A stretch of DNA of 64,000 nt from Patescibacteria group bacterium (lineage in GTDB: Bacteria; Patescibacteriota; Patescibacteriia; Patescibacteriales; UBA12465), in assembly GCA_050943055.1 (NCBI GenBank), contig JBMNOL010000004.1, positions 3,262-67,261 on the forward strand, given 5' to 3'. Below are positions 28,442 to 53,959 of the stretch, piece after piece. The position numbers were made by a program, and so were the translations under genes. Position 1 is the stretch's first letter. The number at the start of each line of letters is the position of its first letter. The notes beneath the pieces are model-generated. The model searched no databases, was not told the origin of the DNA, and saw only the letters and a program-made list of their open reading frames with translations.

Positions 28442-28474
28442 AAAAAACCCGAATATTTATTCGGGTCTTTTTTT
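28442..28474. terminator. Bidirectional intrinsic terminator between convergent rnhA and the por-operon end
   Basis: aaaaaacccgaata-ttt-attcgggtcttttttt is a 9-bp stem with flanking A- and T-runs. Confidence 0.8.
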
Positions 28475-33495: not shown

Positions 33496-34311
33496 CTATT
33501 CATTTAGAGTTTTTAAATAATTGTCGATCATTGTTATAAAAGCGGTATCCTCTAAATAGCCGGTCATCACCCGACCATTAATAAACCAGGATGGTGTTCC
33601 TTCAACTTGAAGAGTTATCGCGTCTTCTAAGTCAATAGCAATATTAGTAGTATACTTTTTCTCGGAGAAGCATTTATCAAACAGAGCGGCATTAATACCT
33701 AGGGTTCCGGCTAGATCATAAATAGTGCTTTTAAGTTCAGTATCAAGAGTCGTGAGGGCGCTTTGGTTGGCAAATAATTGATTATGCATTTCCCAAAACC
33801 TCCCTTGTTCGCCGGCACAACGGGCGGCTAAAGCTAAATCAATCGAGGTTTCGTGTAAAGGTAAGTCACGGTAAATGAATTTTACTTGATCGGGGTAGCG
33901 AGTATTTAGCTTTTCCGCAATTTTATAAGCTTTGGCACAGTAGGGACAGGCAAAGTCGGCAAATTCCACAATAGTGATTAGCGCATCGTCTGGACCTAGG
34001 GAATAATTAGTCCCCGGACCATAGATTGCTCGATCGAGATTTATTTCTTCGGGGTTAATCTTTTGCAAAAGTTCATTCTCTGAGTTGTTGATTAAAAGTT
34101 CCACCTCTTGACCATCAAGAATTCTGGTCGTGAGATTAGAGATATAAAATCCCGCTGCTACTAGCCCGACTAAAACTAAACCGAGGATAATAATTAGCAC
34201 TATTCCCCACCAGCGCTTATACCAAGGGGTTAATTTTTTCTTATATTTTTCTTTAAGAGCCAAATATTTAGTGCGCTCTTCCAGATTCAGATTTCCGAGA
34301 TTTTTTGCCAT
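33496..34311 (-). CDS. Membrane-anchored DsbA-like thiol:disulfide oxidoreductase (thioredoxin fold)
   Basis: N-terminal TM (WWGIVLIIILGLVLVGLVAAGFYI). Active-site FADFACPYCAKAY (CPYC), then GTPSWFING (cis-Pro loop region) as in the DsbA/Thioredoxin_4-like family. It lies 9 nt upstream of porG. Confidence 0.8.
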   Translation of the reverse strand: MAKNLGNLNLEERTKYLALKEKYKKKLTPWYKRWWGIVLIIILGLVLVGLVAAGFYISNLTTRILDGQEVELLINNSENELLQKINPEEINLDRAIYGPGTNYSLGPDDALITIVEFADFACPYCAKAYKIAEKLNTRYPDQVKFIYRDLPLHETSIDLALAARCAGEQGRFWEMHNQLFANQSALTTLDTELKSTIYDLAGTLGINAALFDKCFSEKKYTTNIAIDLEDAITLQVEGTPSWFINGRVMTGYLEDTAFITMIDNYLKTLNE

Positions 34312-39302: not shown

Positions 39303-42300
39303 ATGAAAAACTCATTGTCTTCAAAAATTAAAGCCGGCTCTTTGCTTTTACTGCTGCTGTCGGCTTTTTTTGTATTCAATTTAAATTTGCAGCCTGCCCA
39401 GGCGGTGCCGACCGTCACCGCTGAGGTTTCCTCTATTCCTCAAATACTGGCTGATACAAAATTAACCCTTAAAGAAAAATTGGCTAAAATTTGGAAGACT
39501 TTTGGTGCTAATTTAATTGGTACAACCGTACGCAATACTTTAAATCGGGTTGCCATTGATGCCGCTAAATATGTTGCTTCCGCTGGAGAGGGGCAAAAAC
39601 CAACTTATGTTGTTGAAGACTTTAGTGAGTATTGGAAAAATATTGGCGATGCCGCGGCTGGTGATTTTATTGATGGCTTAGGCCAGGCCTGGGAGGCGGA
39701 TCTTTGCCAGCCACCATCACCGAATATTCAGGCCAAAATTGGTTTAGGTTTAGTGCAGACTCTTTATCCCGATAAACCCGATTGTACTTTAAGTAATTTA
39801 GTTAATAATTACAGCTCGGCTTATGAAAAGTTAGCGGCGATGGAGAGCGGTGATTATTTAAAAGGTATTAAGGCTTCTTTTGATCCGGGCGGTAGTGAAC
39901 TATCAGCCGCTTTCACTCTTTTTGGGCGCGTTCAAGAGGTGAGTACTAAGGCGGAAGAAGATGAAAAAGATAAAAACACCATTACTCAGGGCTGGCTAGA
40001 TGTCAGAAATATTGCCGGTAAACTAGAAAGCGCTCCCGGCCAGGCCAGAGATGATTTAGAAGGAGCAAAAGATCTCCAACGGGAGAACCTTCTTAAAACT
40101 ACTGGTGATGCTTTGGTTGATGCGACCAATATTTTTCTAAACCAACTCGCCTATGAATCTTTTCAGCGAGTAATGCGAGAAATTAATAAAGGCAAAAGTA
40201 CCAGTCAGCCTTTAGATATTAGTCGATTTGATGATTTAAGAAGCAGCGGATTTGAATCTCTCGTGCAGTATGGCGAAACAATCGTTAGCGAAAAACTATC
40301 GAGCGTGGTCAAGCCTCGTTTTGATGTCCGTGGTGACTATAGTATTTTAGGAGAGTTGGTTGCTTGTCCAGATTTAAGTAATCCCGGACCTAACAACTGT
40401 GTGATTGATGATAAGTTTTCACAAGCCATTGCCAATAAATTAACTGTGGGGGAGGCTTTAAAAGAAGGGTACTTGCATGGAGACTGGCAAATTAGCGGCG
40501 ATCCTAAATCGGAAAGTACTTATAATACTCGCAGTGCTAGTATTTTACGAAAATATCGCATTGTCCCTATTACTTGGGAAGAGGCTTTTAATTATGTCGC
40601 TGAAAATAATGTTAAGGCTACTTTTCAAGATTTGGTTTCTTGTTTTGACGGTAGCGATGATTATAACCAGTTCTCCTCCGACTTTACCGATCGCAATGCC
40701 TCTTGGTGTCAAGGGAAAATTGACCCTAATTGGGTGCTTAAAGCCCCGCTTAATTATTGTGCCAAAGAAGGGGCCGGCAGTCAGATTCTTAGCAGTTATG
40801 TCAGCCCAGAGGTGGAAGGTGTATCATCGTTAATGATTTCTCGAGCTACTGATTACTGTGCGGATAACCAGACTTGTATTAAGGAAAAAGTAGATGGCTC
40901 GTGTGAATTATACGGGTACTGTAATGAAGAGCGGCGGACCTGGCGCTTTAACACTGATACTTGCGAACCCGTTTTTAATACCTGCCAAACCTTTACTAAT
41001 GCGACCGATAATCAAGCTCTGTCTTTTTTGGAGAATACTTTAGACTATAGTACTTGTGACGCCAATAATGTTGGTTGTCGCGAATATTATGCTCAGGGTT
41101 CTTATAATCCAACCAACGGTTCTTTTACTTGGGATAAGAATTATCCATTATTTCTAAATAATCGCGCTCCATCTTGTGAGGCGAGCGACGAGGGCTGCAC
41201 TCAATTTTTACGGGGTAAACCAGGCTGGGATGAGGTTAATTATGTCATGGATGGCGGCTTCTTATTGAATCAGGTGGGTGACACCAATAGTATTGTGAAC
41301 TGGCATTGGCCGCTTGAAGGAGCGTCTGTTGCTGGCGAAATTGTTAATGACGGCGGCAAAGCTTTGCAGGTTAGTGGCGGCAACGGTGTTATGCTTTATT
41401 CTGATGAAAAAGGTAGTGTGTTGCCTAAAAATATGACGGCGATTAGTAATTGGTCTTATACTCTTTCTGCGGATGTGAAAATTATTTCTGGAGATAAGTT
41501 GGTGTTGACTTTTGGCGGGCCAATTAAACAGGTGGAAACTAGTAGTCGTGATTGGGTGCGTCTTTCTATTACCCAAGAAAAGACAACGACGCTTAACTTC
41601 TATTTAACTGGTTATGGCAGTAATGTTAAATTTTTAGTCCGCAACTTAAAACTAACTCCTAATGGTCGTCAGACGGCTTTTAGTTATTATGGTAAATATC
41701 CAATTTATCAAAAACTATTACCAAACTATTTAGAATCACTTTGTTACACCTCTTCGGCTACTGGCAACTACACTTTAAAAGAAGGCGCGCCCGCAGTCTG
41801 TTCTGATTATGCCCGTAAATGTAACAAGGAAGACGTCGGCTGCGAATTTTTCCGTTCAGTCGGCGATAATTTTGAAGTAGCCGCTAAGGCTAACGAAAGT
41901 GATTATTGCGATTCGCAATGTGATGGTTACGATGTTTACATTGCTAAAGAGTCAAGTATTTTTTCTGCCAGTGCCGATAATGTTATCCCTGAATTAATGA
42001 CTGCTTGTGCCGCTTCTGAAGCCGGTTGTGCCAGCTTTACCAATCTTGATAAGGTGGAACAGGGTGGCGAAGGAATTGAGTATTATTCTCAACTTAAACA
42101 ATGTGTGAAGCCTCAAGAAGCTTCTTGTGGCGATTTCTATTCTTGGGATAATTCTCAGCTGGTGGTGATGTCTTTGCGACAGAATCCTAATGGTCTTCCT
42201 TACCTAATTGATTCCGACACTAGCGCTGATTGTAGTAAAGACATCTATAATTTGCCTCCTTCTGATCCTCGTTATAATCCTGATTGCCGAGAATTTTACA

Positions 42301-45300
42301 GTAAAGATGGGCGGATTACTTATCATCTAATTTCGGAAACAGTCACTTGTTCCAATAACTGTAACTCTTATCGTTTAAATACAAAAAATTACGACTCCAC
42401 TTTAAAGCAGTCAGAGTGTACCGGGGTCGATAAAAGTTGGGATGATTTTATTCGATCTTGCCAGGTTTGTAAAAATGGTGGACTTTGGGATCCGCAGCAA
42501 AAAGCCTGTGTTTACAAAGCAATTCCTCAAGAAGGAAAAACCTGTGGGGCGGCCAGTGTTGGTTGCCGAGAATATAATGGTAAGAAGGGGAATGCTTTGA
42601 GAATGGCTGAAACTTATACTTTTGAGGGTCAAACAGGGTTTAGCGGCGGTACGCTCAATTCAGATTCTATTTTTAAGGAAGGGCAATCACTGGCTGTCAG
42701 TGGTACCGCCTTTACTGATGCGGAAAATTATGCCAAAGAGGGTGCGGCTTATACTTTAAAATTCTTAGCCAAACCTCTAAATGCTGGTGCTAGTCTTCGC
42801 TTCTCTTTTGTAAATGCCGATAATGAGGTAGCGGTTTTTGGAGTAACACCAACTAATGATAGTGGCGATCTTAAATTAAACGGCGGCTGGCAAACTTATG
42901 AGTTGAGCTTAGGCGCCCTTGATCATCGTCCCGGGACGGAACGCTTGCGAGTGGAAACTACTGGTGGAGTTCTCTTGGATAATTTAGTTGTTAGCGAAAT
43001 TACTGATCGTTATTATTTAGTAAAGGGGTCAAGCGCTATTCCTGATGTTTGCTCTTATGACATCAATGATGTTTATCGGGGGCCAAATTATAATCTAGGT
43101 TGTGCCGGTTATGCGGATCGTTCCGGTGGTCTTCATTATTTACGCCAATTTAGTGAGCTTTGCCGGGACTCAGCCGTGGGTTGTGAACTCTTAGTTCAAA
43201 CTAATAATAATTCCAATTTCTTTAGCTTTACTTATAACCAAAAACCTAAAGATAGTAATTGGACTTCAGCTTGCGAAGAGGGGGCACCCGGCTGTCACTT
43301 GGTTCCAGGCAATGAGGCGGTTTATATGATTTTTGATCAGAGTAAGCAATGCAATCAAGCGGCTACTGGCTGTACTCGCCTCGGCACTATTCAAAATACA
43401 CTCGGAGTTTCTTCTTGGGGGCAAACCTTTAAGCGACTGCAGCCCGATTTGTATCGCGATAAAAACCGTAGCCCTCTTTGTCAGGTTAATGAGGTAGGTT
43501 GTGACGCTTGGCTTTACGAAAATGGTTCCGCTAGTTATTTCAAAAATCCAGGCACCAATACTTGTTTTTACCGCAATGGTAAATGGCTGCAAACTCCAGT
43601 TAAACGTTGCGATGCTAATAATAATGGTCAAATTGATAAAAATGAAAATACGGGAGTAGTTTGTGTTTCTAATGCCGACTGCGGCGGCTCCCAATGCTTA
43701 ACCGACGAAAATGATTATGAATGCTTGGTTGATTATGGTCGCACCTTAGGTCTAAATGGTAATTTAGTGCCCTCGCCGCGAAATAAAGTTGGTTTATGCT
43801 CGGCGGAAGCCTCAGGATGTACCGAATATATTGATCCGCTGAGCGAGCATGCGAGCAATTTACTTTATAATCCTACTGGCGGCAAAGTTGACGGCAACGA
43901 TCGTGATGGTTGGAGCTCAGGTTATCAAGAGGTAACCTTGAAGGCTAACCGCCTCTACACTATTTCTACAGACGGTAGTGTTTCGGGACTGCGGGTTGTG
44001 ATTGTGAGTGAAGGAGATGAGGAAAATGAGCTCCGGCCGCTTGATCAGCAAAACTTTTTAAGTGCTCCGACGAGAGAAATTGTTGTGTCAAATAATCAGG
44101 CCTTGTTCTATGTCCAGAATTTAATAAGTCCGGGTGGTTCAGTTCGCGTTCGTATTTATCGAAGTAGTTATGGGGCCTCGGTTTATTTACGGGAGGCGAT
44201 AATTAATTACCAGTTAAAAGCTCAATTAGATTTACAATCTTGTAATGGTCTTGTTGATGTCGATAATGGCTGTGTCCTCTTTAATGAGCGCAGTCAATCG
44301 GGAGCCAATGGCTTAAGAACGAATATTTATAGCGCTTTAGGAACCAAGAAGGGGCAAGCGCCGGCTTCCTGCTCCGGTAATGACTGTACCGCCAACCAGA
44401 TAATTAAAGTTGAGCCGGATCGGGTTTGCTCTAATTGGCTTTCTTGCCAAACCTATGTTGAAGATCCGGAAACAGGCGAGAGAACCTGTTATAAGATCGG
44501 CGAGTGTAATGAACTAGACGATAAAAATGAATGCTCTAGTTTTATCTCTCACACCAATTCAAATCGTGATCCAATGGATCCTAATAATAAAAATACTACT
44601 GGCTACGCCTTGTTGGATAATTATTATCTGGGGCAGATGAAAGAGGTGGGTGGTCACGCTGAAGCAACTTTCACTTTTGAGACTAACGCTTATAGTCTTT
44701 CCTGTCGTCGCGATATTGATGTCTCTAGCAGCTCCAAGTTATGGGCAGAAAGATCTCGTCCCTGTGTCTTTGATAAGGGAATTAGTGGTGATAGTTTAGT
44801 ATTAAGTCCGGATCAGGCCACCACCGACTATCCCGCTGAAGGTGTTGGTTATTTAAAAGTTTTAAACTATTATCAGATTTCTCCACATGCCGAAAACTCA
44901 CCCATCAGCGTCTCTAAGGGGAAAACTTACTTTATTAATTATTTAGTAAACACCAAAAACTCTAATGCCAGCGCCAAGTTAATCATTACTGATGATAAAA
45001 ATCAGGTTATTGCGACCTTTGTTGACCGGGCGGCCGAAGGCTGGGAAAGGAAGATTAAAAAATTTACGGCTCCTAGCTCTGGGCTGATTAAGATTTTCTT
45101 AACTTCAGACGCTGATAATTTAGCTCAAGGTTATGTTTATTTTGATGATATTTATATAGAACCGGTTTTACAGGTTGGTGATAATAAGTATATTGCTAAA
45201 GAGTGTCGTTTATATCCTGAGGGTGATAGTCTTTCTTGTCTATCAGTAAATAACAATGTTATCAAAGATGGTCTCTATGGTTATTGCTTAGAGCGCGATC

Positions 45301-47012
45301 CGGCCAACCCCAAAGTTTGCCAGCTTTGGTATCCAGTTGATCAGATTTCTCCGGTGGCCCGTGTTTATCAATCAGAGCTTGGTTATAACGGTAAATTCCC
45401 GCTCTACTATTGCACGGAAGTGGATGGAAATTTTTCTTTAGTTGAAAAAAGAGTGGGTAAATTCCATGCCTTTGGGGCTCGCGAAAACTACAGTGAATCT
45501 TGGCTTTATAAAGAATTAGGTTTTAGCGACGGAAAACCAAGTCTGCGAAAATGTAATAGCGCGGAGATAGTTAATGGCACTGACGGTTGCTTGTGTTCAA
45601 ATTCGGCCAGCGTTAATACAACTGCTTGCGGTGATGGATATACTGCCGTTTTTGCTGAAGCTTCCGGTAAATCATCGGGGCTCGATAGCGATTACATGGT
45701 CTTCATTTATTGCATTCCCAAGCAGTCAGAGCTAAAGATAAAAACTGAGCGTAAGCTGGTTAACACTCTTAGTTATTTAGTATATTCCGGCAGTTCTGCT
45801 AATTGTGACTTTGAATATTATGATGGCTGGGCACCCTATAATGATCTTTATAACAAGCCTTTTGTCTACGCAAGAGATCCCAGCACTGACGAGCAAAGCG
45901 AGTTTGATACCAATAATTTAGAAAATATTAATGAGAGTAAAAATGCAGAAGGGACAGAATTTAGTTCAATTATGGTTTTACCCTCCGGGCAAAGCGCGGA
46001 AGGCGCTCTAAAGCATGTGGCTAATAGTAACAATACTATTGACTCCTTTAAGATAACTTGCAATAAATTTTCTCAATTCGCTGGTGATCAAGGAGAGTCC
46101 GTTTCCTGGACTAATCGGATTAGTCGCAATACTCACTTTTCCGAAACGACCCCAACCTTTTTCTCTTCTATTTATAATTCCTTTGGACGCAATCGGGCCG
46201 ATGTTCCTTTTGGGTCAGCCGTACTTCCAGATGACTTTACTTTTGAGAAGAATGGAGCTGTTTATTTGCGTAATCAGTATTCACAAAAGAATAATGAAAC
46301 TATCTTTGCTGGCCGCCCTTATGGCTGTACCGGTTCCGGCTGTGCCAATATCGGTTATTGTGAATTAGACCCCAATGTTTATTGCTTGTACAAGAGTGGT
46401 GATACAGAATTTAACAAACTTACTTGTGCGGCCCGAGGAGGAGGAGCCTGTAAGCCTCTTTGGGGCTCTATTCCTAGCGAAGCGACAGCCATGACCCAAT
46501 TAAATAATTTATTTGTTAATCGCTATAACAACTGGATTTATAATAAAGCTAGCGATTCATACACGCTTAACAATTCGGGGGCGGCGTCTTTCGTTTTCGC
46601 TCGTCAAATGTCACCGATCGCTTACACCGATAATCATCCCAATAACCTTAGCCAAAAAGTTAAACCTAGTATTAACAATGTTAAACTTTCAGGTGTTAGC
46701 GGTGATAATATCTCTGTGAGCGGTGGGCGCTTAAATGTGGCTACGGGGCTTTATCGCCTCAATCTCAATACTAAAGTAAACTTAGAACAGCAGCCTCTAA
46801 AGAGAATTACAATTGATTGGGGAGATGGCACGGTTCAAACAGTCGGCGGTTTAGACTACAAGCCAGATCCTAATATTCCTCACACTTTCTACCATTATTA
46901 TTTAAAAAATAATTATCAAATAAAGATTAAAGCTGAGGATAATTGGGGGGCGTGGCAGTGTCTGGAAAGCAGCGGTTCCGGTTGGTCGGAAAACAGTAAT
47001 TGTGACCTCTAG
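39303..47012 (+). CDS. Giant (2569 aa) secreted cysteine-rich modular surface/adhesin-like protein
   Basis: Single uninterrupted ORF. Signal peptide MKNSLSSKIKAGSLLLLLLSAFFVFNLNLQPAQA (nt 39303-39404). A low-Cys N-terminal region of about 330 aa is followed by long Cys-rich stretches with a recurring C-x5-GC motif. Four beta-sandwich/CBM-like modules lie at approximately 41223-41660, 42609-43003, 43860-44215 and 44661-45164. The C-terminal segment is PKD-like: ITIDWGDGTVQTV...HTFYHYY...YQIKIKAEDNWG (about 46803-46965). No sortase or TM anchor. Confidence 0.85.
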   Translation: MKNSLSSKIKAGSLLLLLLSAFFVFNLNLQPAQAVPTVTAEVSSIPQILADTKLTLKEKLAKIWKTFGANLIGTTVRNTLNRVAIDAAKYVASAGEGQKPTYVVEDFSEYWKNIGDAAAGDFIDGLGQAWEADLCQPPSPNIQAKIGLGLVQTLYPDKPDCTLSNLVNNYSSAYEKLAAMESGDYLKGIKASFDPGGSELSAAFTLFGRVQEVSTKAEEDEKDKNTITQGWLDVRNIAGKLESAPGQARDDLEGAKDLQRENLLKTTGDALVDATNIFLNQLAYESFQRVMREINKGKSTSQPLDISRFDDLRSSGFESLVQYGETIVSEKLSSVVKPRFDVRGDYSILGELVACPDLSNPGPNNCVIDDKFSQAIANKLTVGEALKEGYLHGDWQISGDPKSESTYNTRSASILRKYRIVPITWEEAFNYVAENNVKATFQDLVSCFDGSDDYNQFSSDFTDRNASWCQGKIDPNWVLKAPLNYCAKEGAGSQILSSYVSPEVEGVSSLMISRATDYCADNQTCIKEKVDGSCELYGYCNEERRTWRFNTDTCEPVFNTCQTFTNATDNQALSFLENTLDYSTCDANNVGCREYYAQGSYNPTNGSFTWDKNYPLFLNNRAPSCEASDEGCTQFLRGKPGWDEVNYVMDGGFLLNQVGDTNSIVNWHWPLEGASVAGEIVNDGGKALQVSGGNGVMLYSDEKGSVLPKNMTAISNWSYTLSADVKIISGDKLVLTFGGPIKQVETSSRDWVRLSITQEKTTTLNFYLTGYGSNVKFLVRNLKLTPNGRQTAFSYYGKYPIYQKLLPNYLESLCYTSSATGNYTLKEGAPAVCSDYARKCNKEDVGCEFFRSVGDNFEVAAKANESDYCDSQCDGYDVYIAKESSIFSASADNVIPELMTACAASEAGCASFTNLDKVEQGGEGIEYYSQLKQCVKPQEASCGDFYSWDNSQLVVMSLRQNPNGLPYLIDSDTSADCSKDIYNLPPSDPRYNPDCREFYSKDGRITYHLISETVTCSNNCNSYRLNTKNYDSTLKQSECTGVDKSWDDFIRSCQVCKNGGLWDPQQKACVYKAIPQEGKTCGAASVGCREYNGKKGNALRMAETYTFEGQTGFSGGTLNSDSIFKEGQSLAVSGTAFTDAENYAKEGAAYTLKFLAKPLNAGASLRFSFVNADNEVAVFGVTPTNDSGDLKLNGGWQTYELSLGALDHRPGTERLRVETTGGVLLDNLVVSEITDRYYLVKGSSAIPDVCSYDINDVYRGPNYNLGCAGYADRSGGLHYLRQFSELCRDSAVGCELLVQTNNNSNFFSFTYNQKPKDSNWTSACEEGAPGCHLVPGNEAVYMIFDQSKQCNQAATGCTRLGTIQNTLGVSSWGQTFKRLQPDLYRDKNRSPLCQVNEVGCDAWLYENGSASYFKNPGTNTCFYRNGKWLQTPVKRCDANNNGQIDKNENTGVVCVSNADCGGSQCLTDENDYECLVDYGRTLGLNGNLVPSPRNKVGLCSAEASGCTEYIDPLSEHASNLLYNPTGGKVDGNDRDGWSSGYQEVTLKANRLYTISTDGSVSGLRVVIVSEGDEENELRPLDQQNFLSAPTREIVVSNNQALFYVQNLISPGGSVRVRIYRSSYGASVYLREAIINYQLKAQLDLQSCNGLVDVDNGCVLFNERSQSGANGLRTNIYSALGTKKGQAPASCSGNDCTANQIIKVEPDRVCSNWLSCQTYVEDPETGERTCYKIGECNELDDKNECSSFISHTNSNRDPMDPNNKNTTGYALLDNYYLGQMKEVGGHAEATFTFETNAYSLSCRRDIDVSSSSKLWAERSRPCVFDKGISGDSLVLSPDQATTDYPAEGVGYLKVLNYYQISPHAENSPISVSKGKTYFINYLVNTKNSNASAKLIITDDKNQVIATFVDRAAEGWERKIKKFTAPSSGLIKIFLTSDADNLAQGYVYFDDIYIEPVLQVGDNKYIAKECRLYPEGDSLSCLSVNNNVIKDGLYGYCLERDPANPKVCQLWYPVDQISPVARVYQSELGYNGKFPLYYCTEVDGNFSLVEKRVGKFHAFGARENYSESWLYKELGFSDGKPSLRKCNSAEIVNGTDGCLCSNSASVNTTACGDGYTAVFAEASGKSSGLDSDYMVFIYCIPKQSELKIKTERKLVNTLSYLVYSGSSANCDFEYYDGWAPYNDLYNKPFVYARDPSTDEQSEFDTNNLENINESKNAEGTEFSSIMVLPSGQSAEGALKHVANSNNTIDSFKITCNKFSQFAGDQGESVSWTNRISRNTHFSETTPTFFSSIYNSFGRNRADVPFGSAVLPDDFTFEKNGAVYLRNQYSQKNNETIFAGRPYGCTGSGCANIGYCELDPNVYCLYKSGDTEFNKLTCAARGGGACKPLWGSIPSEATAMTQLNNLFVNRYNNWIYNKASDSYTLNNSGAASFVFARQMSPIAYTDNHPNNLSQKVKPSINNVKLSGVSGDNISVSGGRLNVATGLYRLNLNTKVNLEQQPLKRITIDWGDGTVQTVGGLDYKPDPNIPHTFYHYYLKNNYQIKIKAEDNWGAWQCLESSGSGWSENSNCDL
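41055..43832 (+). repeat. Protein-level repeat: 10 dispersed copies of C-x5-G-C-x2-[YFLWV/T/G] inside the giant ORF
   Basis: All copies are in frame. CDANNVGCREYY 41055; CEASDEGCTQFL 41175; CNKEDVGCEFF 41820; CAASEAGCASFT 42006; CGAASVGCREYN 42543; CRDSAVGCELLV 43161; CEEGAPGCHLVP 43272; CNQAATGCTRLG 43350; CQVNEVGCDAWL 43479; CSAEASGCTEYI 43797. Confidence 0.8.
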
Positions 47013-47188: not shown

Positions 47189-47788
47189 ATGGGTGTTGAC
47201 GAAAAACTGTTGAATATTAACAGCGAAGCGGCGGAAAAAGCCGGAAGTCTACAGGCTGCTAAAAGAGAGACAAACTTAGGTGCTGCTTTGCCAGAAAGTG
47301 CCAGTTTGAGTTTACGCGAACAGGTTCAACTTAGTCGTCAAGAAGAGTTGCAGGCGACCGAAGAGCAAGAAAAAAATAAACCCTCAGAAACTAATCCCGT
47401 TCGACTCGCGACCGACTCCTTGCTAAAAGGGGCTTGGGCCAATTTAATTACCAGCTGGGGGTTAACGCTTTTGTATATTGATCTTCATGTTTTTTTAAAT
47501 AAAGTTTTAGGAGATAAATTTTTTGGTCCTTTGGGTGAAGAGTGGGTTCCGGCCAAAATAAAACATTTAGGCGGCACGGAAGTTAAAGAAGCTTCTGGAG
47601 GCCTAAAAATTACCGAGACTGCTGGTTGTGCTCTTCTTAATTTATTAGTGCTAGCGATTATTATTGGCATACTTGCTTTAGTTTCTTTAATCTATTCCTT
47701 TATTTCTGACCCGGTGGGAACATTCTGGGAAATGTTGACCGATTGGGTTTCTAAAAATCTCCCCGGTTTCGCTGCGATATTTAAATAG
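47189..47788 (+). CDS. Hypothetical membrane protein, first gene of the T4SS-like operon
   Basis: 199 aa. Hydrophilic Glu/Gln-rich N-terminus, then two hydrophobic segments (WANLITSWGLTLLYIDLHVFL; CALLNLLVLAIIIGILALVSLIYSFI). No family recognised. Confidence 0.55.
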   Translation: MGVDEKLLNINSEAAEKAGSLQAAKRETNLGAALPESASLSLREQVQLSRQEELQATEEQEKNKPSETNPVRLATDSLLKGAWANLITSWGLTLLYIDLHVFLNKVLGDKFFGPLGEEWVPAKIKHLGGTEVKEASGGLKITETAGCALLNLLVLAIIIGILALVSLIYSFISDPVGTFWEMLTDWVSKNLPGFAAIFK

Positions 47789-47806
47789 TGAAAATTACTA
47801 GCGGTC

Positions 47807-50749
47807 ATGAAAAAAATTAATTTTAAAAAATTACCGAAAAAATATTATTGGTTGTTTGGAGCCACTCTTTTGTTAATGGTTTTTTTCTTGGCGGAACCGG
47901 CTTTAGCTGCTTGGGATTGGGCCGCTGATATCGTTGGTGGTCTGATTGAAGTTTTAATTCGTGGTGTTTCCGCAATTTTAATCTTGCTGGTTAATGTCTT
48001 TATGGACATTGCGGCTTACAGCGACTTTATTAATTCGCCAGCGGTAGTTAATGGGTGGATAATCGTTCGTGATCTTTGCAACATGCTTTTTGTTCTGATC
48101 TTGTTAGTAATCGCTTTTGCTACTATTTTGGGTCAGGAAAAATACAGTGCCAAAAACATGCTGCCAAAATTAGTTTTAGCAGCGGTATTAATTAATTTTT
48201 CTAAATTAATTTGTGGTTTAACTATTGATATCGCTAATGTCGTCATGCTCACTTTTGTTAATGCTTTTGCCGCTATTGGTGCTGGCAATATTTTAAATAT
48301 TTTAGGAATTGAAAAAATAACCAAGCTTAGGGATGCCGCCGATGTTAATAATGCTACTCTGGTCACCTCCTACATTTTTGGCTTTCTCTATGTGCTTATT
48401 GCCACCGTGGTGGTCGCCTCAATGGTAGCTATGCTAGCTATTCGGGTAGTAATGATTTGGATTTTAACTGTTTTGTCGCCGGTCGCTTTTTTCTTGCAAG
48501 CTGTTCCGGGAAAAGGGGCTAGCTATGCCAGTAAATGGTGGGACGAATGGACGAAGAATTTACTGGTTGGCCCGATCCTTGCTTTTTTCTTATGGTTATC
48601 TTTTGCGGCCCTACAGACCGGCACAAATCCTATTCAGTCCAGTGACGCTGGTGATAAGGAGCTTGCGGCCAACTTGTCTGATCTAGATTCGGGGATTGCG
48701 ACTGAGGGTGGGCAAGTTTCCAACTTAGTTCAGTTTGTGATTGCTATTGGCATGTTAGTCGGGGGGATGACTATTGCCCAATCAGTTGGCGGTGCGGCCG
48801 GCGGCGCAATTGGCGCGGGCATGAAAAATCTTAATAAAGGTAAGGCGAAAGTTTTCGGCGCTGGAGCCGCAATTGGCGCGGGCGCGGTCGCCCTAGGAAA
48901 ATCCGGAGTTAAGAGTATTGGACGCGGTGCGGGCAGTCTGGCTTTGGATGCTGTTTCTCATACCGGTAAAACAGATGCGGCGGGGCAGCCAACTGGAAAA
49001 TTGCAAAAATTTGCGGCCACTTGGAACCAAGATTTGAAAAAAAGTCGTCAAGAGAAAAAGATTGCTTCCAGGCAAAAATATCTGGAAAAATTTGGTTTCG
49101 GTGAGGCATCGGCTCGGGCCGGGAAAGAGTTTGTTGATAGCGTAGGGGAAAAGAAATTACCCTCTTTCCTTAAAACTAAGGTAGCGCTGGCACCTAGCAA
49201 AGAAAAGGTTGAAATGGCTAAAGCGGATATAAAAAATTATGAATCTAATTTAGGCGCGGGCGGTAAAGCTTCTGATGAGGCCATGGTTCGAGATTTTTCT
49301 CGCCGAGCCAAGAATAATCCCAATTTAGTGATGACGGCGGCGGAAAAAGAAGCGCTAAAACGTAGTAAAGATTACCGAGAAAACCAAAATATTTTAGAAG
49401 CTTATAAGTATCGAAAATCTTTTGCCACAACCTCAAATGCTTTTGAAGCTTTTTATAAAGACAAAGATAAGGCCAAAGAAGAACGAAATCAGCGGCGCGT
49501 TGATAGGCTTGCTAAGTCAAAAAATCCATTTAAGGGAGAGAATTATTATGGAGATTATGGTTTAGATGCTGACAATAAAGCTGTTTTAGATGCCATGAAT
49601 AATGGTGCTCCAGGTGAAGCAGGCGCGGAATTGAGAGACAGGCTTATAGCTGGTCTAGATGGAAAAGACATAACTCACGAAGAAGCTGAAAAAATTAATT
49701 TAAGTCTTGAGGCTTATAAAAAGTCTGGTGAAAAATTGACGGGCTTAAAAGTTCTTGATGATAAGCTTAAGAATCTTGGGTTTAGCTCTAATGTTAATGC
49801 TAAAATTAATTTTAAAGATTATGACCCCGAGATAATGCGTCATCGTCCTGGTCAAGGCGGGTTAAAATATGATGCTTTTGGTAAAAATTCTCTTAAGGCT
49901 GCTAATCAGCGCAGTGCCGACAAAGATATAATGGAGCTATCTTTTGATCAATTGGATAAATATAACCAACAAGGCTCCTTAGGAGCGCCCATTTTGGGCA
50001 AAGCGGCGGGATCAGTTTTGACTGGAGATAATTTAAAGAAATCTTTGCCCGCTTTAAATAGTTTAATTGATAGCGAAGCCATCAAGATTAAAAATCAGGC
50101 CGGTTCTAATCCTAGCTCCGAACAGGCTGCCAAAATCAGCCAGTTAGAAGCCATTAAGAGTCGCCTTAGTGATGGCAGCTTGGATAAGTTAGAAATAAAG
50201 AACTCAGATATTGAATATTTAGGTGAAACCGACTCGGTTAAGAGAGCCCGTAGCTATAACACTACGCAGCATGAAAAAATTCATGGCGCCGGATTTACTG
50301 ATGAAGATTTAACCTACAAAGCGGCCGATCTCTTACAGGCTAATAAGCTGATTGGTAATATTCCTAATACTAATAAGCGTTATGATGAAGAATTGGGAAA
50401 AATGATGGCGAATATGTTGGCCGCAAAAATAGATAGTCAGCAAATAGAAGAGGCCATGATTAAGAAAATTGAAGACTGGCGCCTACCAGATGTGGATCGT
50501 GTTTTAGAAAGCGAAGCGGGCGTGCGCTCTAACTTAGTGAAAGAAACCGGCGGGTCATTAGACATTGATAAATTAACAGAAAAAATTGTTGACGGTTTTG
50601 ATGGTGTTCAAAGCGCTTTGTCAGAAAGACAGGTAGAGGAAATTAAAGAGATCACCGAGGAATCGCGAGTAACCAATGTTACTTTGGAAAAAATGGTCAG
50701 AGAGCAAGAAAAAAGAAGTCGAAACAATCTTAGAGGTTATCTAAGTTAA
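47807..50749 (+). CDS. VirB6/TrbL-like (TcpH / Tn916 Orf15-like) polytopic membrane protein with Gly/Ala-rich linker and long hydrophilic C-terminal extension
   Basis: 980 aa. A signal-anchor is followed by about 7 hydrophobic helices in the first 330 aa or so. A GGAAGGAIGAGMKN...GAGAAIGAGAVALG linker comes next, then a charged, Lys/Glu-rich region of about 600 aa. The architecture and operon position match VirB6-type channel subunits of Gram-positive conjugation systems. Confidence 0.6.
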   Translation: MKKINFKKLPKKYYWLFGATLLLMVFFLAEPALAAWDWAADIVGGLIEVLIRGVSAILILLVNVFMDIAAYSDFINSPAVVNGWIIVRDLCNMLFVLILLVIAFATILGQEKYSAKNMLPKLVLAAVLINFSKLICGLTIDIANVVMLTFVNAFAAIGAGNILNILGIEKITKLRDAADVNNATLVTSYIFGFLYVLIATVVVASMVAMLAIRVVMIWILTVLSPVAFFLQAVPGKGASYASKWWDEWTKNLLVGPILAFFLWLSFAALQTGTNPIQSSDAGDKELAANLSDLDSGIATEGGQVSNLVQFVIAIGMLVGGMTIAQSVGGAAGGAIGAGMKNLNKGKAKVFGAGAAIGAGAVALGKSGVKSIGRGAGSLALDAVSHTGKTDAAGQPTGKLQKFAATWNQDLKKSRQEKKIASRQKYLEKFGFGEASARAGKEFVDSVGEKKLPSFLKTKVALAPSKEKVEMAKADIKNYESNLGAGGKASDEAMVRDFSRRAKNNPNLVMTAAEKEALKRSKDYRENQNILEAYKYRKSFATTSNAFEAFYKDKDKAKEERNQRRVDRLAKSKNPFKGENYYGDYGLDADNKAVLDAMNNGAPGEAGAELRDRLIAGLDGKDITHEEAEKINLSLEAYKKSGEKLTGLKVLDDKLKNLGFSSNVNAKINFKDYDPEIMRHRPGQGGLKYDAFGKNSLKAANQRSADKDIMELSFDQLDKYNQQGSLGAPILGKAAGSVLTGDNLKKSLPALNSLIDSEAIKIKNQAGSNPSSEQAAKISQLEAIKSRLSDGSLDKLEIKNSDIEYLGETDSVKRARSYNTTQHEKIHGAGFTDEDLTYKAADLLQANKLIGNIPNTNKRYDEELGKMMANMLAAKIDSQQIEEAMIKKIEDWRLPDVDRVLESEAGVRSNLVKETGGSLDIDKLTEKIVDGFDGVQSALSERQVEEIKEITEESRVTNVTLEKMVREQEKRSRNNLRGYLS

Positions 50750-50766
50750 TTAAAGTTTTATTAAAA

Positions 50767-51816
50767 ATGGATCAAAATTATTTTAACTATTGCCTAGAGA
50801 AATTTAAAGACTTACCGGATCCGGTTAGAGAATTTTTAAATAGTCCGGACACGGCGGCCATAGTTAGGAAAATAGAAATTAAACATGAAGCCTCACTTAG
50901 TTTCTTGGTTGTCCTTGTTGCTATTGGTGAGTTAAGTTTTGAAGATATTCCTAGCTATCTCGAGAAAAAATATCAAATCGAGAAGAGTCGTGGAGAGCTT
51001 ATTGCCGCCGAAATTATTGATCAGGTTTTTGGTCCGCTCTTAAATAAGAAAGATTTAAGCGATGAGGCGGTTATCAACGATATTTTAGGGGAGGAGACCT
51101 TGACTTTAAAGCCCTTAGTTGAGCGTGATCTAGAAGAGCGGCGGCAAATAATTTTAGATATTTTTGAAAATGATTTAGTTTCAACGCTGAAAGCGGATAA
51201 TTCAAACTTAAAAGCTTTGAATTTAGCAATTTTTAAGACTTTTAACGATGATCCGGCTTTGGAAGACCAGGTGGAATCGCTACTTTATAATAATCAAGAA
51301 AAGCTAACTAAGGATAATTTAATTTTGGACGCTTATCCGGCTGCCCCCACCGTTGCCAATTGGTTAAAAGATTTTATTAAAATATACGGCAGTTCTTTTT
51401 TTAGCGATATTTCTTTGGCGGAGTATTTAGTTAAGGCCCCTAATCTAAAAAAATTAGCGAGTGCCGAAAAAGAGTTGGTACGTAAACTTTTAAAGCTTTA
51501 TCGCAATTTAGTTTTCTTTCCTGAAAGCATGGACGGAATTTTATTGGAAAATTGGGAGTTGTTTCCTTTAGAGATGGTGGCAAACGATTCTCTAGTTGAA
51601 ACAAATAAACTTTTAAAGATAGCTACTCCTGCTCCGGTAGAAAAGGAATCTCGCCCGGTTTCTGCTCCCGCTGAAACTAATACTTCCGCCGCTCCTGGTA
51701 ATGAAAAAGAGCAGCTGATTCAAAATTTAGAAAAAAGCTTGGTTAAATATTCTGTTTCCAGTTTAGAATATAAGGCTTTACAGCAAGAAATAAATCGTTT
51801 AAAGCGAGAAGATTAA
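50767..51816 (+). CDS. Hypothetical protein (shares N-terminal domain with the next gene)
   Basis: 349 aa, no TM. The N-terminal 90 aa or so align without gaps to the N-terminus of ORF 51827-53497. No family recognised. Confidence 0.6.
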   Translation: MDQNYFNYCLEKFKDLPDPVREFLNSPDTAAIVRKIEIKHEASLSFLVVLVAIGELSFEDIPSYLEKKYQIEKSRGELIAAEIIDQVFGPLLNKKDLSDEAVINDILGEETLTLKPLVERDLEERRQIILDIFENDLVSTLKADNSNLKALNLAIFKTFNDDPALEDQVESLLYNNQEKLTKDNLILDAYPAAPTVANWLKDFIKIYGSSFFSDISLAEYLVKAPNLKKLASAEKELVRKLLKLYRNLVFFPESMDGILLENWELFPLEMVANDSLVETNKLLKIATPAPVEKESRPVSAPAETNTSAAPGNEKEQLIQNLEKSLVKYSVSSLEYKALQQEINRLKRED

Positions 51817-51826
51817 TTTTTCCTTC

Positions 51827-53497
51827 ATGTTTGACTATTTGCAAAAATTTGATGGCCTGCCAGAGAAAATTCAGGCCAGTGTTTCCTCCCCGGCAGCAAT
51901 GGCGGTCATTTCTGATTTAGAAAAAAAGTATCAAGTCGATTTAGCGGCTTTAGTTATTAAAGTAGTGGTCAAAGATATTGCGTTGGCTGATCTGCCGGCT
52001 CATTTAGTTTCCGAATTTCAATTAAGTCCGGATAACGCTCGCCATTTGACGGCGGACCTAAAAGAGCGGCTCTTTTTTCCGATTGCCAATTACTTAGGCT
52101 ACAATCCTTCTTACTCAACAATTATTCCGGAAGCGAAACCCGTTTCTGATACTTTTTATTTAATTAAAAAGGTTATTCGTGAAGCCGGACTTAACTTCTC
52201 CGTCAGCGAGTTAAACCAACGTTTAGAAAATATTTTAAACACTTATTTTAAGGGCGTTCGCAGCCGCATTGATACTCGCCTAGCTTTAAATAAGGGGATA
52301 ACTAATGGCGGTTTGGGTTTGGACCATAAAATAATTGATCGCTTATTTTTGTTAATTGATCAAGCTCGTGAAAAACCGATCCTTACTCCCACTGCTGAGA
52401 CTGCGCCAGTAACAGATATAAAAAATGACGCGGTGTCTTTAGAAAAAGTGCGCGCGGCTTACCAAAAAGCTGGTACTGCTAGAGATATTCCCTATGATCT
52501 TAAGGCGGCCATCGCTAAGCGACAGGAAGCCGAGGCAGCTCCGCAAAAATTATTAAAAGATGGCGCGGAAACATCTTTAGCAGCGCCGCGATTAACACCT
52601 TTGGCCGTGCCGGTGAAAAAAGAAAAAGCTTCCGAAGTCTCAAAAAATGAGGCCTCTAAAGTTGCTCCCGTTACGTTCCCGACTTCGCCGATTCCACCAG
52701 TACCAGTTGCGCCGACACCAGCGCCGGCATCTCAGCCAGTGTCGGTACCGACGCCGACGCCAATATCAAAGCCAGCCCCGATATTAACTCCTAAGGTGGA
52801 GTCTGTTTTGGTGGCGCCTCTTTTACCAACCAAAGAAGGACTAAGAACCATTGAGCAACCGCCAAAAAAGAAGTCTAATTTCTTTAAAAAAATATTTTCA
52901 AAATCAGAGAAAGAGGTGGCGCCATTACCAACTACGCCAACTCCGAAGCCAACACTAGCTGGCTCGTCTTCAGTGGCGAGTTTAAGACAGCAGGCTCAGC
53001 AAAATATCAATAATCCTCATTTACGGCCCGATTCCATCTCTAGTGCTCCGTTAAAGGCGGGGAGTCAACAATCGGTGGCACCCATTAAGAGCACGCTGGC
53101 GCCTATTAAAAACGCGTTCACACCTCAGCCAACCCCGAGTCCGGTTGTGAATTCTTTAACTAGGCCAAAAACTTTGGGGCCGGTAGAGGAGCTCCATTAT
53201 TTAGAGTTAATCAACTTTCGTCGTTTAGGTGCTTCCCCTAAAGAAGCTGCTGCCAAGATAGAAAAAAAGATTCGTACTCTGGAGAGTGAAGGATATGATA
53301 AAATGGTTGAAGGAATTCTTGCTTGGCGTTCGGGAGAGATAAATAGTATTTATGTTAAAATGGCTAAAGAGGCTTTGAAATATCAGGTAACTTTGAAACA
53401 GATCGCTGATAAATATCAGGCCCAAAAAAATCCTCAATATTTAACCTGGGATGAGATTGAAGAATTGATTGCCCTTAACCATCGTTTAACTTTTTAG
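51827..53497 (+). CDS. Hypothetical protein with shared N-domain, Pro-rich linker and C-terminal helical domain
   Basis: 556 aa. The N-domain is paralogous to the preceding ORF. Pro-rich tracts PVTFPTSPIPPVPVAPTPAPASQPVSVPTPTPISKPAPILTP (about nt 52661-52800) and APLPTTPTPKPT. No family recognised. Confidence 0.6.
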   Translation: MFDYLQKFDGLPEKIQASVSSPAAMAVISDLEKKYQVDLAALVIKVVVKDIALADLPAHLVSEFQLSPDNARHLTADLKERLFFPIANYLGYNPSYSTIIPEAKPVSDTFYLIKKVIREAGLNFSVSELNQRLENILNTYFKGVRSRIDTRLALNKGITNGGLGLDHKIIDRLFLLIDQAREKPILTPTAETAPVTDIKNDAVSLEKVRAAYQKAGTARDIPYDLKAAIAKRQEAEAAPQKLLKDGAETSLAAPRLTPLAVPVKKEKASEVSKNEASKVAPVTFPTSPIPPVPVAPTPAPASQPVSVPTPTPISKPAPILTPKVESVLVAPLLPTKEGLRTIEQPPKKKSNFFKKIFSKSEKEVAPLPTTPTPKPTLAGSSSVASLRQQAQQNINNPHLRPDSISSAPLKAGSQQSVAPIKSTLAPIKNAFTPQPTPSPVVNSLTRPKTLGPVEELHYLELINFRRLGASPKEAAAKIEKKIRTLESEGYDKMVEGILAWRSGEINSIYVKMAKEALKYQVTLKQIADKYQAQKNPQYLTWDEIEELIALNHRLTF

Positions 53498-53956: not shown

Positions 53957-53959
53957 TTT

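What the first reader, a model, noticed from the sequence alone, without database searches (positions are those of the whole stretch)
41055..43832. Ten-fold recurrence of an exact-spacing C-x5-G-C-x2-hydrophobic motif inside the giant ORF
Ten in-frame occurrences share identical spacing: CDANNVGCREYY, CEASDEGCTQFL, CNKEDVGCEFF, CAASEAGCASFT, CGAASVGCREYN, CRDSAVGCELLV, CEEGAPGCHLVP, CNQAATGCTRLG, CQVNEVGCDAWL and CSAEASGCTEYI. Their coordinates are in the repeat feature.

The copies are dispersed, not tandem, and the flanks are not conserved at the DNA level. This suggests an old, selectively maintained structural unit rather than recent duplication. It could be a small disulfide-closed loop or a metal-binding knuckle that punctuates the protein between larger modules. 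I do not recognise it as a named repeat family.
Basis: seen in the sequence. Interest (0 to 1): 0.55.

Follow-up and report, generated by a model that had tools for sequence, protein, structure and literature searches.

The report
Conserved two-cysteine loops in giant protein
A 2,569-residue secreted protein of an ultra-small (Patescibacteria) bacterium carries ten copies of an eight-residue loop bounded by two cysteines; the loops are almost perfectly conserved in hundreds of relatives and are most likely small disulfide staples that stiffen a surface protein encoded beside the cell's type IV secretion genes.

Summary
C-x5-G-C-x2-hydrophobic occurs exactly ten times, in frame, at the stated coordinates in ORF 39303-47012. 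Shuffles give a mean of 0.07 matches for the full pattern and 0.23 (maximum 4) for the core.

It is not chance. Nine of the ten cysteine pairs are 99.6-100% conserved in 264 homologues with about 40% identity. The seventh pair is present or absent as a unit: both 181, neither 82, one only 1.

The conserved signal covers only about 11 residues, so this is a mini-motif and not a domain repeat. Copies 2, 5 and 10 may share a lead-in to CBM4/9-like beta-sandwich modules.

The protein has a signal peptide. Most homologues have an even cysteine count. A membrane-anchored DsbA-type oxidoreductase with a CPYC site lies in conserved synteny. No extra metal ligands are conserved around the motif. An intramotif disulfide is therefore the best reading and a metal knuckle is unlikely.

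The sulphur-sulphur geometry could not be checked. The AlphaFold models were poor at the motifs and no coordinates were returned.

The host is an unannotated family of about 2,500-2,800-residue proteins (about 1,270 representatives, Falkowbacteria/ABY1-type Patescibacteria). It sits in the gene string ksgA, small TSP3 protein, giant, four unknowns, prgI, virB4. No named family or solved structure matches the motif.

It is a new variant of a known kind and of moderate interest.

The parts
39303..47012 (+). Giant ORF of 2,569 aa. It has an N-terminal Sec-type signal peptide (MKNSLSSKIKAGSLLLLLLSAFFVFNLNLQPAQA|VP) and 86 Cys. It has no Pfam or NCBIfam hit.
   Evidence: 100% identical to P0001 (NCBI MAG 'Patescibacteria group bacterium', hypothetical protein)
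40962..40994 (+). Degenerate eleventh copy, CEPVFNTCQTF (aa 554-564). It has the same C-x6-C-x2-F spacing but no Gly. Both Cys are 100% conserved.
41055..41087 (+). Copy 1, CDANNVGCREY (aa 585-595).
   Evidence: Cys and Gly 100% conserved and Tyr 97% in 264 homologues
41175..41207 (+). Copy 2, CEASDEGCTQF (aa 625-635). It lies upstream of beta-sandwich module 1.
41277..41669 (+). Beta-sandwich module 1 (aa ~659-789), a CBM4/9- or CBM22-like jelly roll.
   Evidence: (pLDDT 77-90)
41820..41852 (+). Copy 3, CNKEDVGCEFF (aa 840-850). It is fused to a preceding C-x6-C loop (CSDYARKC).
42006..42038 (+). Copy 4, CAASEAGCASF (aa 902-912).
42543..42575 (+). Copy 5, CGAASVGCREY (aa 1081-1091). It lies 11 aa before the first strand of module 2.
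42597..43004 (+). Beta-sandwich module 2 (aa ~1099-1234). This is where homologues hit Pfam CBM_4_9 above the cut-off.
43161..43193 (+). Copy 6, CRDSAVGCELL (aa 1287-1297).
43272..43304 (+). Copy 7, CEEGAPGCHLV (aa 1324-1334). This is the only dispensable copy: both Cys are present in 181 homologues, both absent in 82, and one only in 1.
   Evidence: pLDDT ~76 in model 2
43350..43382 (+). Copy 8, CNQAATGCTRL (aa 1350-1360).
43479..43511 (+). Copy 9, CQVNEVGCDAW (aa 1393-1403).
43797..43829 (+). Copy 10, CSAEASGCTEY (aa 1499-1509). The Glu at +9 is 100% conserved. It leads into the next module.
33496..34311 (-). Membrane-anchored DsbA-like thiol:disulfide oxidoreductase with a CPYC active site. 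It is the candidate oxidant for the loops.
   Evidence: same position in L001 and L002
38588..39265 (+). Small membrane-anchored protein with TSP3-type calcium-binding repeats, immediately upstream of the giant gene and co-conserved with it.
   Evidence: present in 36 of 38 loci
47189..53497 (+). Four conserved genes of unknown function (199, 980, 349 and 556 aa) between the giant gene and prgI.
53501..56559 (+). Core genes of the type IV secretion system: PrgI/VirB3-like, TraC-like and a VirB4-like ATPase.

Best explanation
Each C-x5-G-C-x2-hydrophobic element is probably a small loop closed by a disulfide between its own two cysteines (Cys i to Cys i+7). The Gly allows the turn. The second Cys and the hydrophobic residue three positions later begin a beta-strand.

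The loops would act as covalent staples. They would stiffen and protect the cysteine-rich connecting regions, and at least three of them would cap the entry into CBM4/9-like beta-sandwich modules.

The protein that carries them is a 2,569-aa, Sec-exported surface protein. It belongs to a large unannotated family of Falkowbacteria/ABY1-type Patescibacteria and always sits at the head of the chromosomal type IV secretion gene string.

What is shown:
- the motif and its statistics;
- near-absolute conservation of the cysteines;
- gain and loss of one copy as a unit;
- the module context;
- the conserved gene order;
- the presence of a DsbA-type enzyme.

What is inferred:
- the intramotif disulfide;
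- the stapling role;
- more speculatively, that the giant protein is the host-contact or adhesin partner of the secretion system.
For: - Statistics: ten copies against 0.23 expected and a maximum of 4. Spacing 7 is the commonest Cys-Cys gap, and Gly precedes the second Cys in 10 of 12 such pairs.
- Conservation: in 264 HMM-aligned homologues, 18 of the 20 motif Cys are 99.6-100% conserved, Gly 77-100% and the +10 hydrophobic residue 81-98% in most copies. The loop residues vary.
- Pairing logic: C1324 and C1331 are both present in 181 homologues, both absent in 82 and singly present in 1. No other Cys is lost together with them. 34 of 64 homologues without copy 7 keep all 47 other Cys of the segment, and the even/odd ratio of total Cys is unchanged, 49/16 against 130/34. 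These two cysteines therefore do not need partners elsewhere.
- Parity: the Cys count is even in 179 of 229 full-length homologues, p 3e-18.
- Export and oxidation: a signal peptide is read from the sequence. A DsbA-like protein with a membrane anchor and a CPYC site lies 5 kb upstream, at the same place in L001 and L002.
- No extra ligands: information content is confined to about 11 residues, with no conserved His or Cys in the flanks.
- Secondary structure: the second Cys starts a predicted strand in 6 of 10 copies (model 1) and 4 of 5 copies (model 2).
- Context: CBM-like modules. In 38 species-level loci the neighbouring genes are conserved: KsgA 37, small TSP3 protein 36, p199 30, p980 32, p349 28. 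prgI, traC-like and virB4 lie downstream.
Against: - No structural confirmation. Both AlphaFold models are poor at the motifs (pLDDT below 50 for nine of ten, about 76 for copy 7). The tool returns no coordinates, so S-S distances were not measured.
- Copy 7 is lost as a deleted segment, so its co-loss is weaker evidence than independent substitutions would be.
- 22% of homologues have an odd Cys count.
- The organism carries pyruvate:ferredoxin oxidoreductase and probably lives anaerobically, where exposed disulfides may be less stable.
- No DsbB or VKOR partner was seen in the window.
- The link to type IV secretion rests on gene order only.
Confidence: 0.68

Rival explanations
1. The motifs are metal-binding half-sites. 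Two C-x6-C motifs would come together to form a Cys4 zinc (or iron) centre that clamps distant parts of the protein.
For: Cysteine pairs with invariant spacing and an adjacent Gly recall zinc knuckles. There are ten copies, an even number, in this protein. Copies 7 and 8 are only 26 aa apart.
Against: - Each unit supplies only two ligands, and no further Cys or His is conserved within 20-30 residues.
- The spacing is C-x6-C, not the C-x2-C or C-x4-C of known knuckles.
- The protein is exported (signal peptide), and a DsbA-type oxidase is conserved nearby.
- 82 of 264 homologues lack copy 7 but keep all nine others. That leaves an odd number of half-sites.
- No zinc-ribbon or zinc-knuckle family was hit.
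Confidence: 0.07
2. The motif is the only surviving trace of an ancient internal duplication of a larger domain. On this reading the ten copies mark ten diverged homologous modules, not an independent mini-unit.
For: In profile-profile comparisons of 80-aa windows, copies 2, 5 and 10 align in register over about 40 columns, covering the motif plus the lead-in to a beta-sandwich. Probabilities are 90-96% and the best E-value is 8e-10. Modules 1 and 2 align in register over 135 columns, though weakly.
Against: - For the other pairs the in-register match covers only the 12-20 motif columns.
- Averaged over copies, the flanks carry no shared information.
- With longer windows and 28 sequences the probabilities fall to 4-56%.
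- Spacings between copies range from 26 to 215 aa, and the predicted contexts differ.
- This reading complements the disulfide-staple reading for three copies and does not compete with it.
Confidence: 0.15
3. The loops are functional display loops, for example ligand- or host-binding loops or protease-inhibitor-like canonical loops. The disulfide would present the five variable residues to a target.
For: Residues x1-x5 of the loop vary between copies and between orthologues, while the frame (C, G, C, hydrophobic) is fixed. This is the pattern seen in disulfide-constrained display loops. The protein is probably on the cell surface of an epibiont.
Against: - Within one copy the loop residues are moderately conserved and small or acidic (A, S, D, E, V). 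They are not hypervariable and not like known reactive-site loops.
- No match to inhibitor families.
- Several copies sit right at module boundaries, which suits a structural role.
Confidence: 0.07
4. The recurrence is a chance by-product of a cysteine- and glycine-rich composition.
For: The protein has 3.35% Cys and 8.1% Gly.
Against: - 20,000 shuffles never exceeded 4 core matches or 2 full matches, against 10 observed.
- Every copy is positionally conserved across 264 homologues.
- In 318,651 aa of ORF stretches outside the giant ORFs recognised by the scan, across 82 related loci, the pattern matched in six stretches: four single matches in hydrophobic stretches and two fragments of a split giant gene in L079.
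Confidence: 0.01

Closest known systems
Short-range cystine-stapled loops or hairpins of extracellular cysteine-rich proteins (generic class; e.g. the small disulfide loops within EGF-like, furin-like or TNFR-type repeats)
   Same: Two invariant cysteines a few residues apart, a Gly at the turn, variable loop residues, an extracytoplasmic location, and many copies per protein.
   Different: Those repeats are 30-40-residue domains with 4-8 cysteines in a fixed pattern. Here the conserved unit is about 11 residues with only two cysteines, the copies are scattered at irregular spacing (26-215 aa), and no profile of such families matches. The comparison rests partly on general knowledge.
CBM_4_9 (PF02018) / CBM22 carbohydrate-binding beta-sandwich modules
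   Same: The confident modules between the motifs have this fold. Foldseek matches CBM22 4xup chains C and E at TMt 0.64-0.66, and the binary-toxin receptor-binding domain 9mui at TMt 0.67. 12 of 18 homologues hit PF02018, best E 1.3e-11.
   Different: The window protein itself gives no Pfam hit. The C-x5-G-C loop is not, to my knowledge, part of the CBM_4_9 definition. Sugar binding is untested.
PrgB / aggregation-substance-type adhesins of monoderm conjugation systems (pCF10 prgA-prgB-prgC upstream of prgD-prgL)
   Same: A large exported surface protein gene sits directly upstream of the prgI (VirB3) and virB4 channel genes of an MPF-FATA-related system. PMC12102498 relates the Patescibacteria system to MPF-FATA and reports that no PrgB-like adhesin was detected.
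   Different: No sequence or profile similarity. No LPXTG anchor is visible. The resemblance is positional only.
Zinc knuckles / zinc ribbons
   Same: Paired cysteines with an adjacent glycine.
   Different: The spacing is C-x6-C rather than C-x2-C. There are only two ligands per unit and the protein is exported. No family was hit.

Membership tests
Intramotif disulfide-stapled loop (structural class, not a curated family) | Both cysteines are conserved and are gained or lost together | tested here: met
   18 of 20 motif Cys are 99.6-100% conserved in 264 homologues. For copy 7: both 181, neither 82, one only 1. No other Cys is co-lost.
Intramotif disulfide-stapled loop (structural class, not a curated family) | Extracytoplasmic location and a thiol oxidase available | tested here: met
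   A signal peptide with an AQA|V site is read from the sequence. A TM-anchored DsbA-like protein with a CPYC site is in conserved synteny. No signal-peptide predictor was available.
Intramotif disulfide-stapled loop (structural class, not a curated family) | Sulphur-sulphur distance and geometry compatible with a bond between Cys i and Cys i+7 | not testable with these tools
   The models have pLDDT below 50 at nine of ten motifs, and the tool returns no coordinates.
Zinc knuckle / zinc ribbon | Four Cys/His ligands in two closely spaced pairs (typically C-x2-C ... C-x2-C) | tested here: not met
   There are only two Cys per unit, at C-x6-C spacing. No Cys or His is conserved in positions -20 to +29. 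The number of units is odd in 82 homologues. No Pfam zinc family was hit.
CBM_4_9 (PF02018), for the modules between the motifs | Profile match above Pfam's gathering score | tested here: inconclusive
   The window protein has no hit at E <= 1. Homologues P0084 and P0029 score 33.9 and 34.5 bits against a cut-off of 25.9 at the aligned module. 12 of 18 homologues hit.
CBM_4_9 (PF02018), for the modules between the motifs | Jelly-roll beta-sandwich fold | tested here: met
   Modules have pLDDT 77-92. Foldseek matches CBM22 4xup chains C and E at TMt 0.64-0.66 and E about 2e-6.
EGF-like / furin-like / TNFR-type cysteine-rich repeats | A domain of 30-40 aa with 6-8 cysteines in a fixed pattern, detectable by profile | tested here: not met
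   No Pfam or NCBIfam hit in the window protein or in 18 homologues. The conserved unit is 11 aa with 2 Cys. Foldseek of the Cys-rich region gave a best E of 0.4.
PrgB-type conjugation adhesin | Sequence or profile homology to PrgB / aggregation substance | tested here: not met
   No Pfam, NCBIfam or PDB sequence hit. PMC12102498 also reports that no PrgB homologue was found in Patescibacteria.
PrgB-type conjugation adhesin | Gene placed next to the T4SS channel genes | tested here: met
   The giant gene lies 6.5 kb upstream of prgI, traC-like and virB4, with four conserved genes in between. The same order is seen in L001 and in up to 32 of 38 loci.

The most novel reading that the evidence does not exclude
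The C-x5-G-C loop is the signature of an undescribed, family-specific cystine staple. It holds together a roughly 2,600-residue surface protein that is the missing host-contact or adhesin component of the Patescibacteria (ABY1/Falkowbacteria-type) type IV secretion apparatus. This component was reported as undetectable by homology (PMC12102498). The staples would let a long, modular, CBM-bearing stalk survive outside the cell of an epibiont.
Probability: 0.3. Interest if true: 0.65.

Novelty: new variant of a known kind. Interest (0 to 1): 0.42.

Why it matters
Patescibacteria make up a large share of bacterial diversity and appear to live attached to host cells. In Saccharimonadia, type IV secretion genes were identified as essential for epibiotic growth (abstract of PMC12102498). 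No adhesin has been recognised for the Patescibacteria type IV secretion system (PMC12102498).

This analysis shows three things about the motif and its host protein.
- The motif marks a very large protein family: about 1,270 cluster representatives, found in 113 species-level genomes by one pattern scan.
- No source gives the family a name, and it has no solved or recognisable fold in its cysteine-rich parts.
- The gene is locked in order with the secretion genes and with a DsbA-type oxidase.

The motif gives a simple, highly specific sequence handle for finding the family. It also gives a concrete hypothesis that can be tested: ten or eleven intramotif disulfides.

On its own, the motif is a structural detail and not a new mechanism.

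Tried and rejected
- Pfam and NCBIfam scans of the giant protein gave nothing.
- A full-length family profile against PDB sequences gave only a marginal CBM-like hit, 4d0q at E 0.8.
- A 20-column motif profile against PDB sequences gave only single chance matches in cytosolic branched-chain aminotransferases, E 0.3-0.5.
- An AlphaFold model of aa 470-1560 with 29 sequences had mean pLDDT 53.7, with all ten motifs in stretches below 50.
- A second model of aa 1240-1520 with a 49-sequence trimmed alignment had mean pLDDT 62. Only copy 7 lay in a moderately confident stretch.
- Foldseek of that second model gave no match, best E 0.4.
- The weak DUF4141 hit in P0084 maps to aa 30-71, the signal-peptide region, and is below the cut-off. 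I rejected it as evidence.
- The idea that every copy marks a diverged homologous domain was tested with hhalign. It holds at most for copies 2, 5 and 10.
- High-probability hhalign hits between neighbouring copies (585/625, 840/902, 1287/1324, 1324/1350, 1350/1393) come from overlapping windows and were discarded.
- In the synteny check my 'giantC' query was out of frame, so it says nothing.
- Literature searches for giant cysteine-rich Patescibacteria proteins found no description of this family.
- I ran no further search on the 20-residue motif profile, because candidates selected by shared words would be swamped by members of this same family.

Full report
**Observation**

The window is about 41-42% G+C and is densely coding. 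The finding lies inside one ORF, 39303-47012 on the + strand. It encodes 2,569 aa with 86 cysteines.

The regular expression C.{5}GC matches exactly ten times, at aa 585, 625, 840, 902, 1081, 1287, 1324, 1350, 1393 and 1499. All ten have Y/F/L/V/W three residues after the second Cys.

Shuffles that preserve composition (20,000) gave a mean of 0.23 and a maximum of 4 for the core. For the full pattern the mean was 0.07 and the maximum 2. Shuffling only the Cys-rich part gave a mean of 0.20 and a maximum of 3.

A spacing of 7 is the commonest gap between consecutive cysteines (12 observed, 2.3 expected). Ten of these 12 carry Gly just before the second Cys, p 7e-10.

At the DNA level nothing is repeated except 45 nt at 71% identity between copies 1 and 5. 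None of the other 37 ORFs of the window has the motif.

One is an eleventh copy without the Gly (CEPVFNTCQTF, aa 554). The other is a second class of six C-x5-C loops.

**Conservation**

The protein is 100% identical to an NCBI MAG protein annotated only as hypothetical, from a 'Patescibacteria group bacterium'. It has hundreds of full-length relatives of 2,500-2,800 aa.

A scan of aa 470-1560 against 1.84 billion cluster representatives found 1,271 proteins at E <= 1e-3 and 1,037 at E <= 1e-30. Most of the 150 listed are 2,000-3,000 aa long, and the shorter ones look like fragments.

In 73 aligned orthologues with 42-79% identity, all 49 cysteines of aa 470-1560 are essentially invariant.

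In 264 diverse homologues aligned to an HMM, nine of the ten motif pairs are 99.6-100% conserved. The Gly is 77-100% conserved. The hydrophobic position is 81-98% conserved in most copies. The five loop residues vary.

The seventh copy is the exception, and it is informative. Both cysteines are present in 181 homologues, both absent in 82, and only one present in a single case.

No other cysteine is lost together with them. 34 of 64 homologues without copy 7 keep all 47 other cysteines of the segment. The even/odd ratio of total cysteines is the same with the copy (130/34) and without it (49/16). These two cysteines therefore need no partner elsewhere.

Overall the cysteine count is even in 179 of 229 full-length homologues, p 3e-18.

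**Size of the unit**

I averaged the ten copies and their orthologues. Information content is high only from the first Cys to the hydrophobic residue: C-[NSD]-[AS]-x-[EAD]-[VA]-G-C-x-[EQR]-[YFLV]. Positions -20 to -1 and +11 to +29 carry no shared signal, and no His or further Cys is conserved there. This is a mini-motif of about 11 residues, not a domain repeat.

Profile-profile comparison of 80-aa windows mostly aligns only the 12-20 motif columns. Copies 2, 5 and 10 are different. They align in register over about 40 columns, with probabilities of 90-96% and a best E-value of 8e-10. With longer windows and fewer sequences this signal is weak.

These three copies lie upstream of beta-sandwich modules, so they may belong to a duplicated unit of loop plus module.

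**Structure**

An AlphaFold model of aa 470-1560 had mean pLDDT 53.7. It was confident only for two jelly-roll modules (aa ~659-789 and ~1099-1234) and for aa ~939-1069. All ten motifs fell in stretches with pLDDT below 50.

Foldseek matched the confident modules to CBM22 (4xup chains C and E, TMt 0.64-0.66) and to binary-toxin receptor-binding domains. Pfam CBM_4_9 is hit in 12 of 18 homologues, best E 1.3e-11. The hit is above the cut-off in P0084 and P0029 at the position of module 2. The window protein itself gives no hit.

A second model of aa 1240-1520, built with a 49-sequence alignment, reached mean pLDDT 62. Only copy 7 lay in a moderately confident stretch, about 76. Foldseek of this model found nothing, best E 0.4.

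In both models the second Cys is the first residue of a predicted strand in most copies: 6 of 10 and 4 of 5. Coordinates are not returned, so the sulphur-sulphur distance could not be measured. This is the main gap.

Neither a full-length family profile nor a 20-column motif profile finds any solved structure.

**Context**

The N-terminus reads as a Sec signal peptide.

Five kilobases upstream lies a DsbA-like protein with a membrane anchor and a CPYC active site. Further upstream, two cysteine-rich proteins with a T4SS_pilin domain are interleaved with pyruvate:ferredoxin oxidoreductase subunits.

Directly upstream of the giant gene are leuS, ksgA and a small anchored protein with TSP3 calcium-binding repeats. 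Downstream are four conserved genes of unknown function, then prgI (VirB3-like), a TraC-like gene and a VirB4-like ATPase, followed by radA and recG.

The same order is found around distant homologues: P0084 in L001 and, partly, P0052 in L002. A pattern scan found the family in 113 species-representative genomes. Among 38 of those loci with full flanks, KsgA is present in 37, the small TSP3 protein in 36, p199 in 30, p980 in 32 and p349 in 28.

Records that name an organism call it Candidatus Falkowbacteria, Patescibacteria or Parcubacteria.

PMC12102498 describes the Patescibacteria type IV secretion system as related to the monoderm conjugation machinery. It notes radA and recG next to it in class ABY1, as seen here, and states that no adhesin such as PrgB was detected.

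In 82 related loci the scan recognised 82 giant ORF stretches with three or more motif copies (mode 9). Two further fragments of a split giant gene in L079 also carry four copies each. The remaining 318,651 aa of ORF stretches gave only four single matches, all in hydrophobic stretches.

**Interpretation**

The most likely reading is that each motif is closed by its own disulfide and acts as a covalent staple in an exported, modular surface protein. I put confidence in this at about 0.68.

The metal-knuckle alternative is unlikely. Each unit has two ligands only, the spacing is wrong, the protein is exported, and many homologues have an odd number of units. Chance is excluded. An ancient domain duplication may explain three copies and is compatible with the staple reading.

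That the giant protein is the host-contact partner of the secretion system is an inference from gene order and CBM-like modules only.

**Comparison and novelty**

Short disulfide-closed loops in extracellular cysteine-rich proteins are a familiar kind of feature. This particular 11-residue unit, its dispersed arrangement and its host family match no curated family or solved structure that I could test.

I rate it a new variant of a known kind, of moderate interest. The value lies less in the loop itself than in flagging a very large, unannotated protein family linked to type IV secretion in Patescibacteria.

Noticed in passing
window 28473-29633 (-) and 30505-31485 (-): Two secreted, cysteine-rich proteins (14 and 18 Cys) with a T4SS_pilin (PF18895) domain are interleaved with the subunits of pyruvate:ferredoxin oxidoreductase. 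The same odd interleaving is seen in L001, and partly in L002 (where the gene in the second pilin position has no Pfam hit). They lack the C-x5-G-C motif.
   Followed up: partly
window 33496-34311 (-): A membrane-anchored DsbA-like thioredoxin-fold protein with a CPYC active site sits at the same position relative to the giant gene in distant homologues. No DsbB or VKOR partner is visible in the window.
   Followed up: partly
window 38588-39265 (+): A small anchored protein with two TSP3-type calcium-binding repeats (DTDGDGLTDWDE, DTDGDGLSDFDE) and a C-x5-C loop lies immediately upstream of the giant gene. It is co-conserved in 36 of 38 loci and may be a partner of the giant protein.
   Followed up: partly
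window 43560-43740 (+), aa ~1420-1480 of the giant protein: This is the only confidently modelled part of the Cys-rich region (pLDDT ~84-93). It is a small domain with six cysteines and a DANNNGQID stretch that looks like a calcium-binding DxNxNGxID loop. It has no fold match in the PDB.
   Followed up: partly
window ~46800-47009 (+), C-terminus of the giant protein: The C-terminal ~70 residues (IDWGDGTVQ...PHTFYHYY...AEDNWG) resemble a PKD-type domain by eye and are strongly conserved in the family. Pfam does not report it.
   Followed up: no
window 40857-40877, 40902-40922, 43662-43682, 44427-44447, 44487-44507, 46341-46361 (+): There is a second class of short cysteine loops, C-x5-C (CADNQTC, CELYGYC, CVSNADC, CSNWLSC, CYKIGEC, CANIGYC). 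Six were observed against 2.4 expected, and they are largely invariant in the family.
   Followed up: partly
window 47189-53497 (+): Four conserved genes with no Pfam hit (199, 980, 349 and 556 aa) lie between the giant gene and prgI. The 980-aa product has an N-terminal hydrophobic stretch. They are probably unrecognised components of the secretion system.
   Followed up: partly
window 57216-58580 (+) and 60998-63076 (-): radA and recG lie next to the virB4 cluster, the arrangement reported for class ABY1 in PMC12102498. This places the window in that class.
   Followed up: partly
loci L004-L007, L012, L019 and others: Many genome records that carry this Patescibacteria-type gene are titled 'uncultured Gammaproteobacteria bacterium' (TPA assemblies), and one is titled 'Bacillota bacterium'. 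These titles look like placeholder or wrong taxonomic labels.
   Followed up: no
window 43266-43694 (-): A 142-aa ORF lies on the opposite strand inside the giant gene. It is most likely spurious.
   Followed up: no
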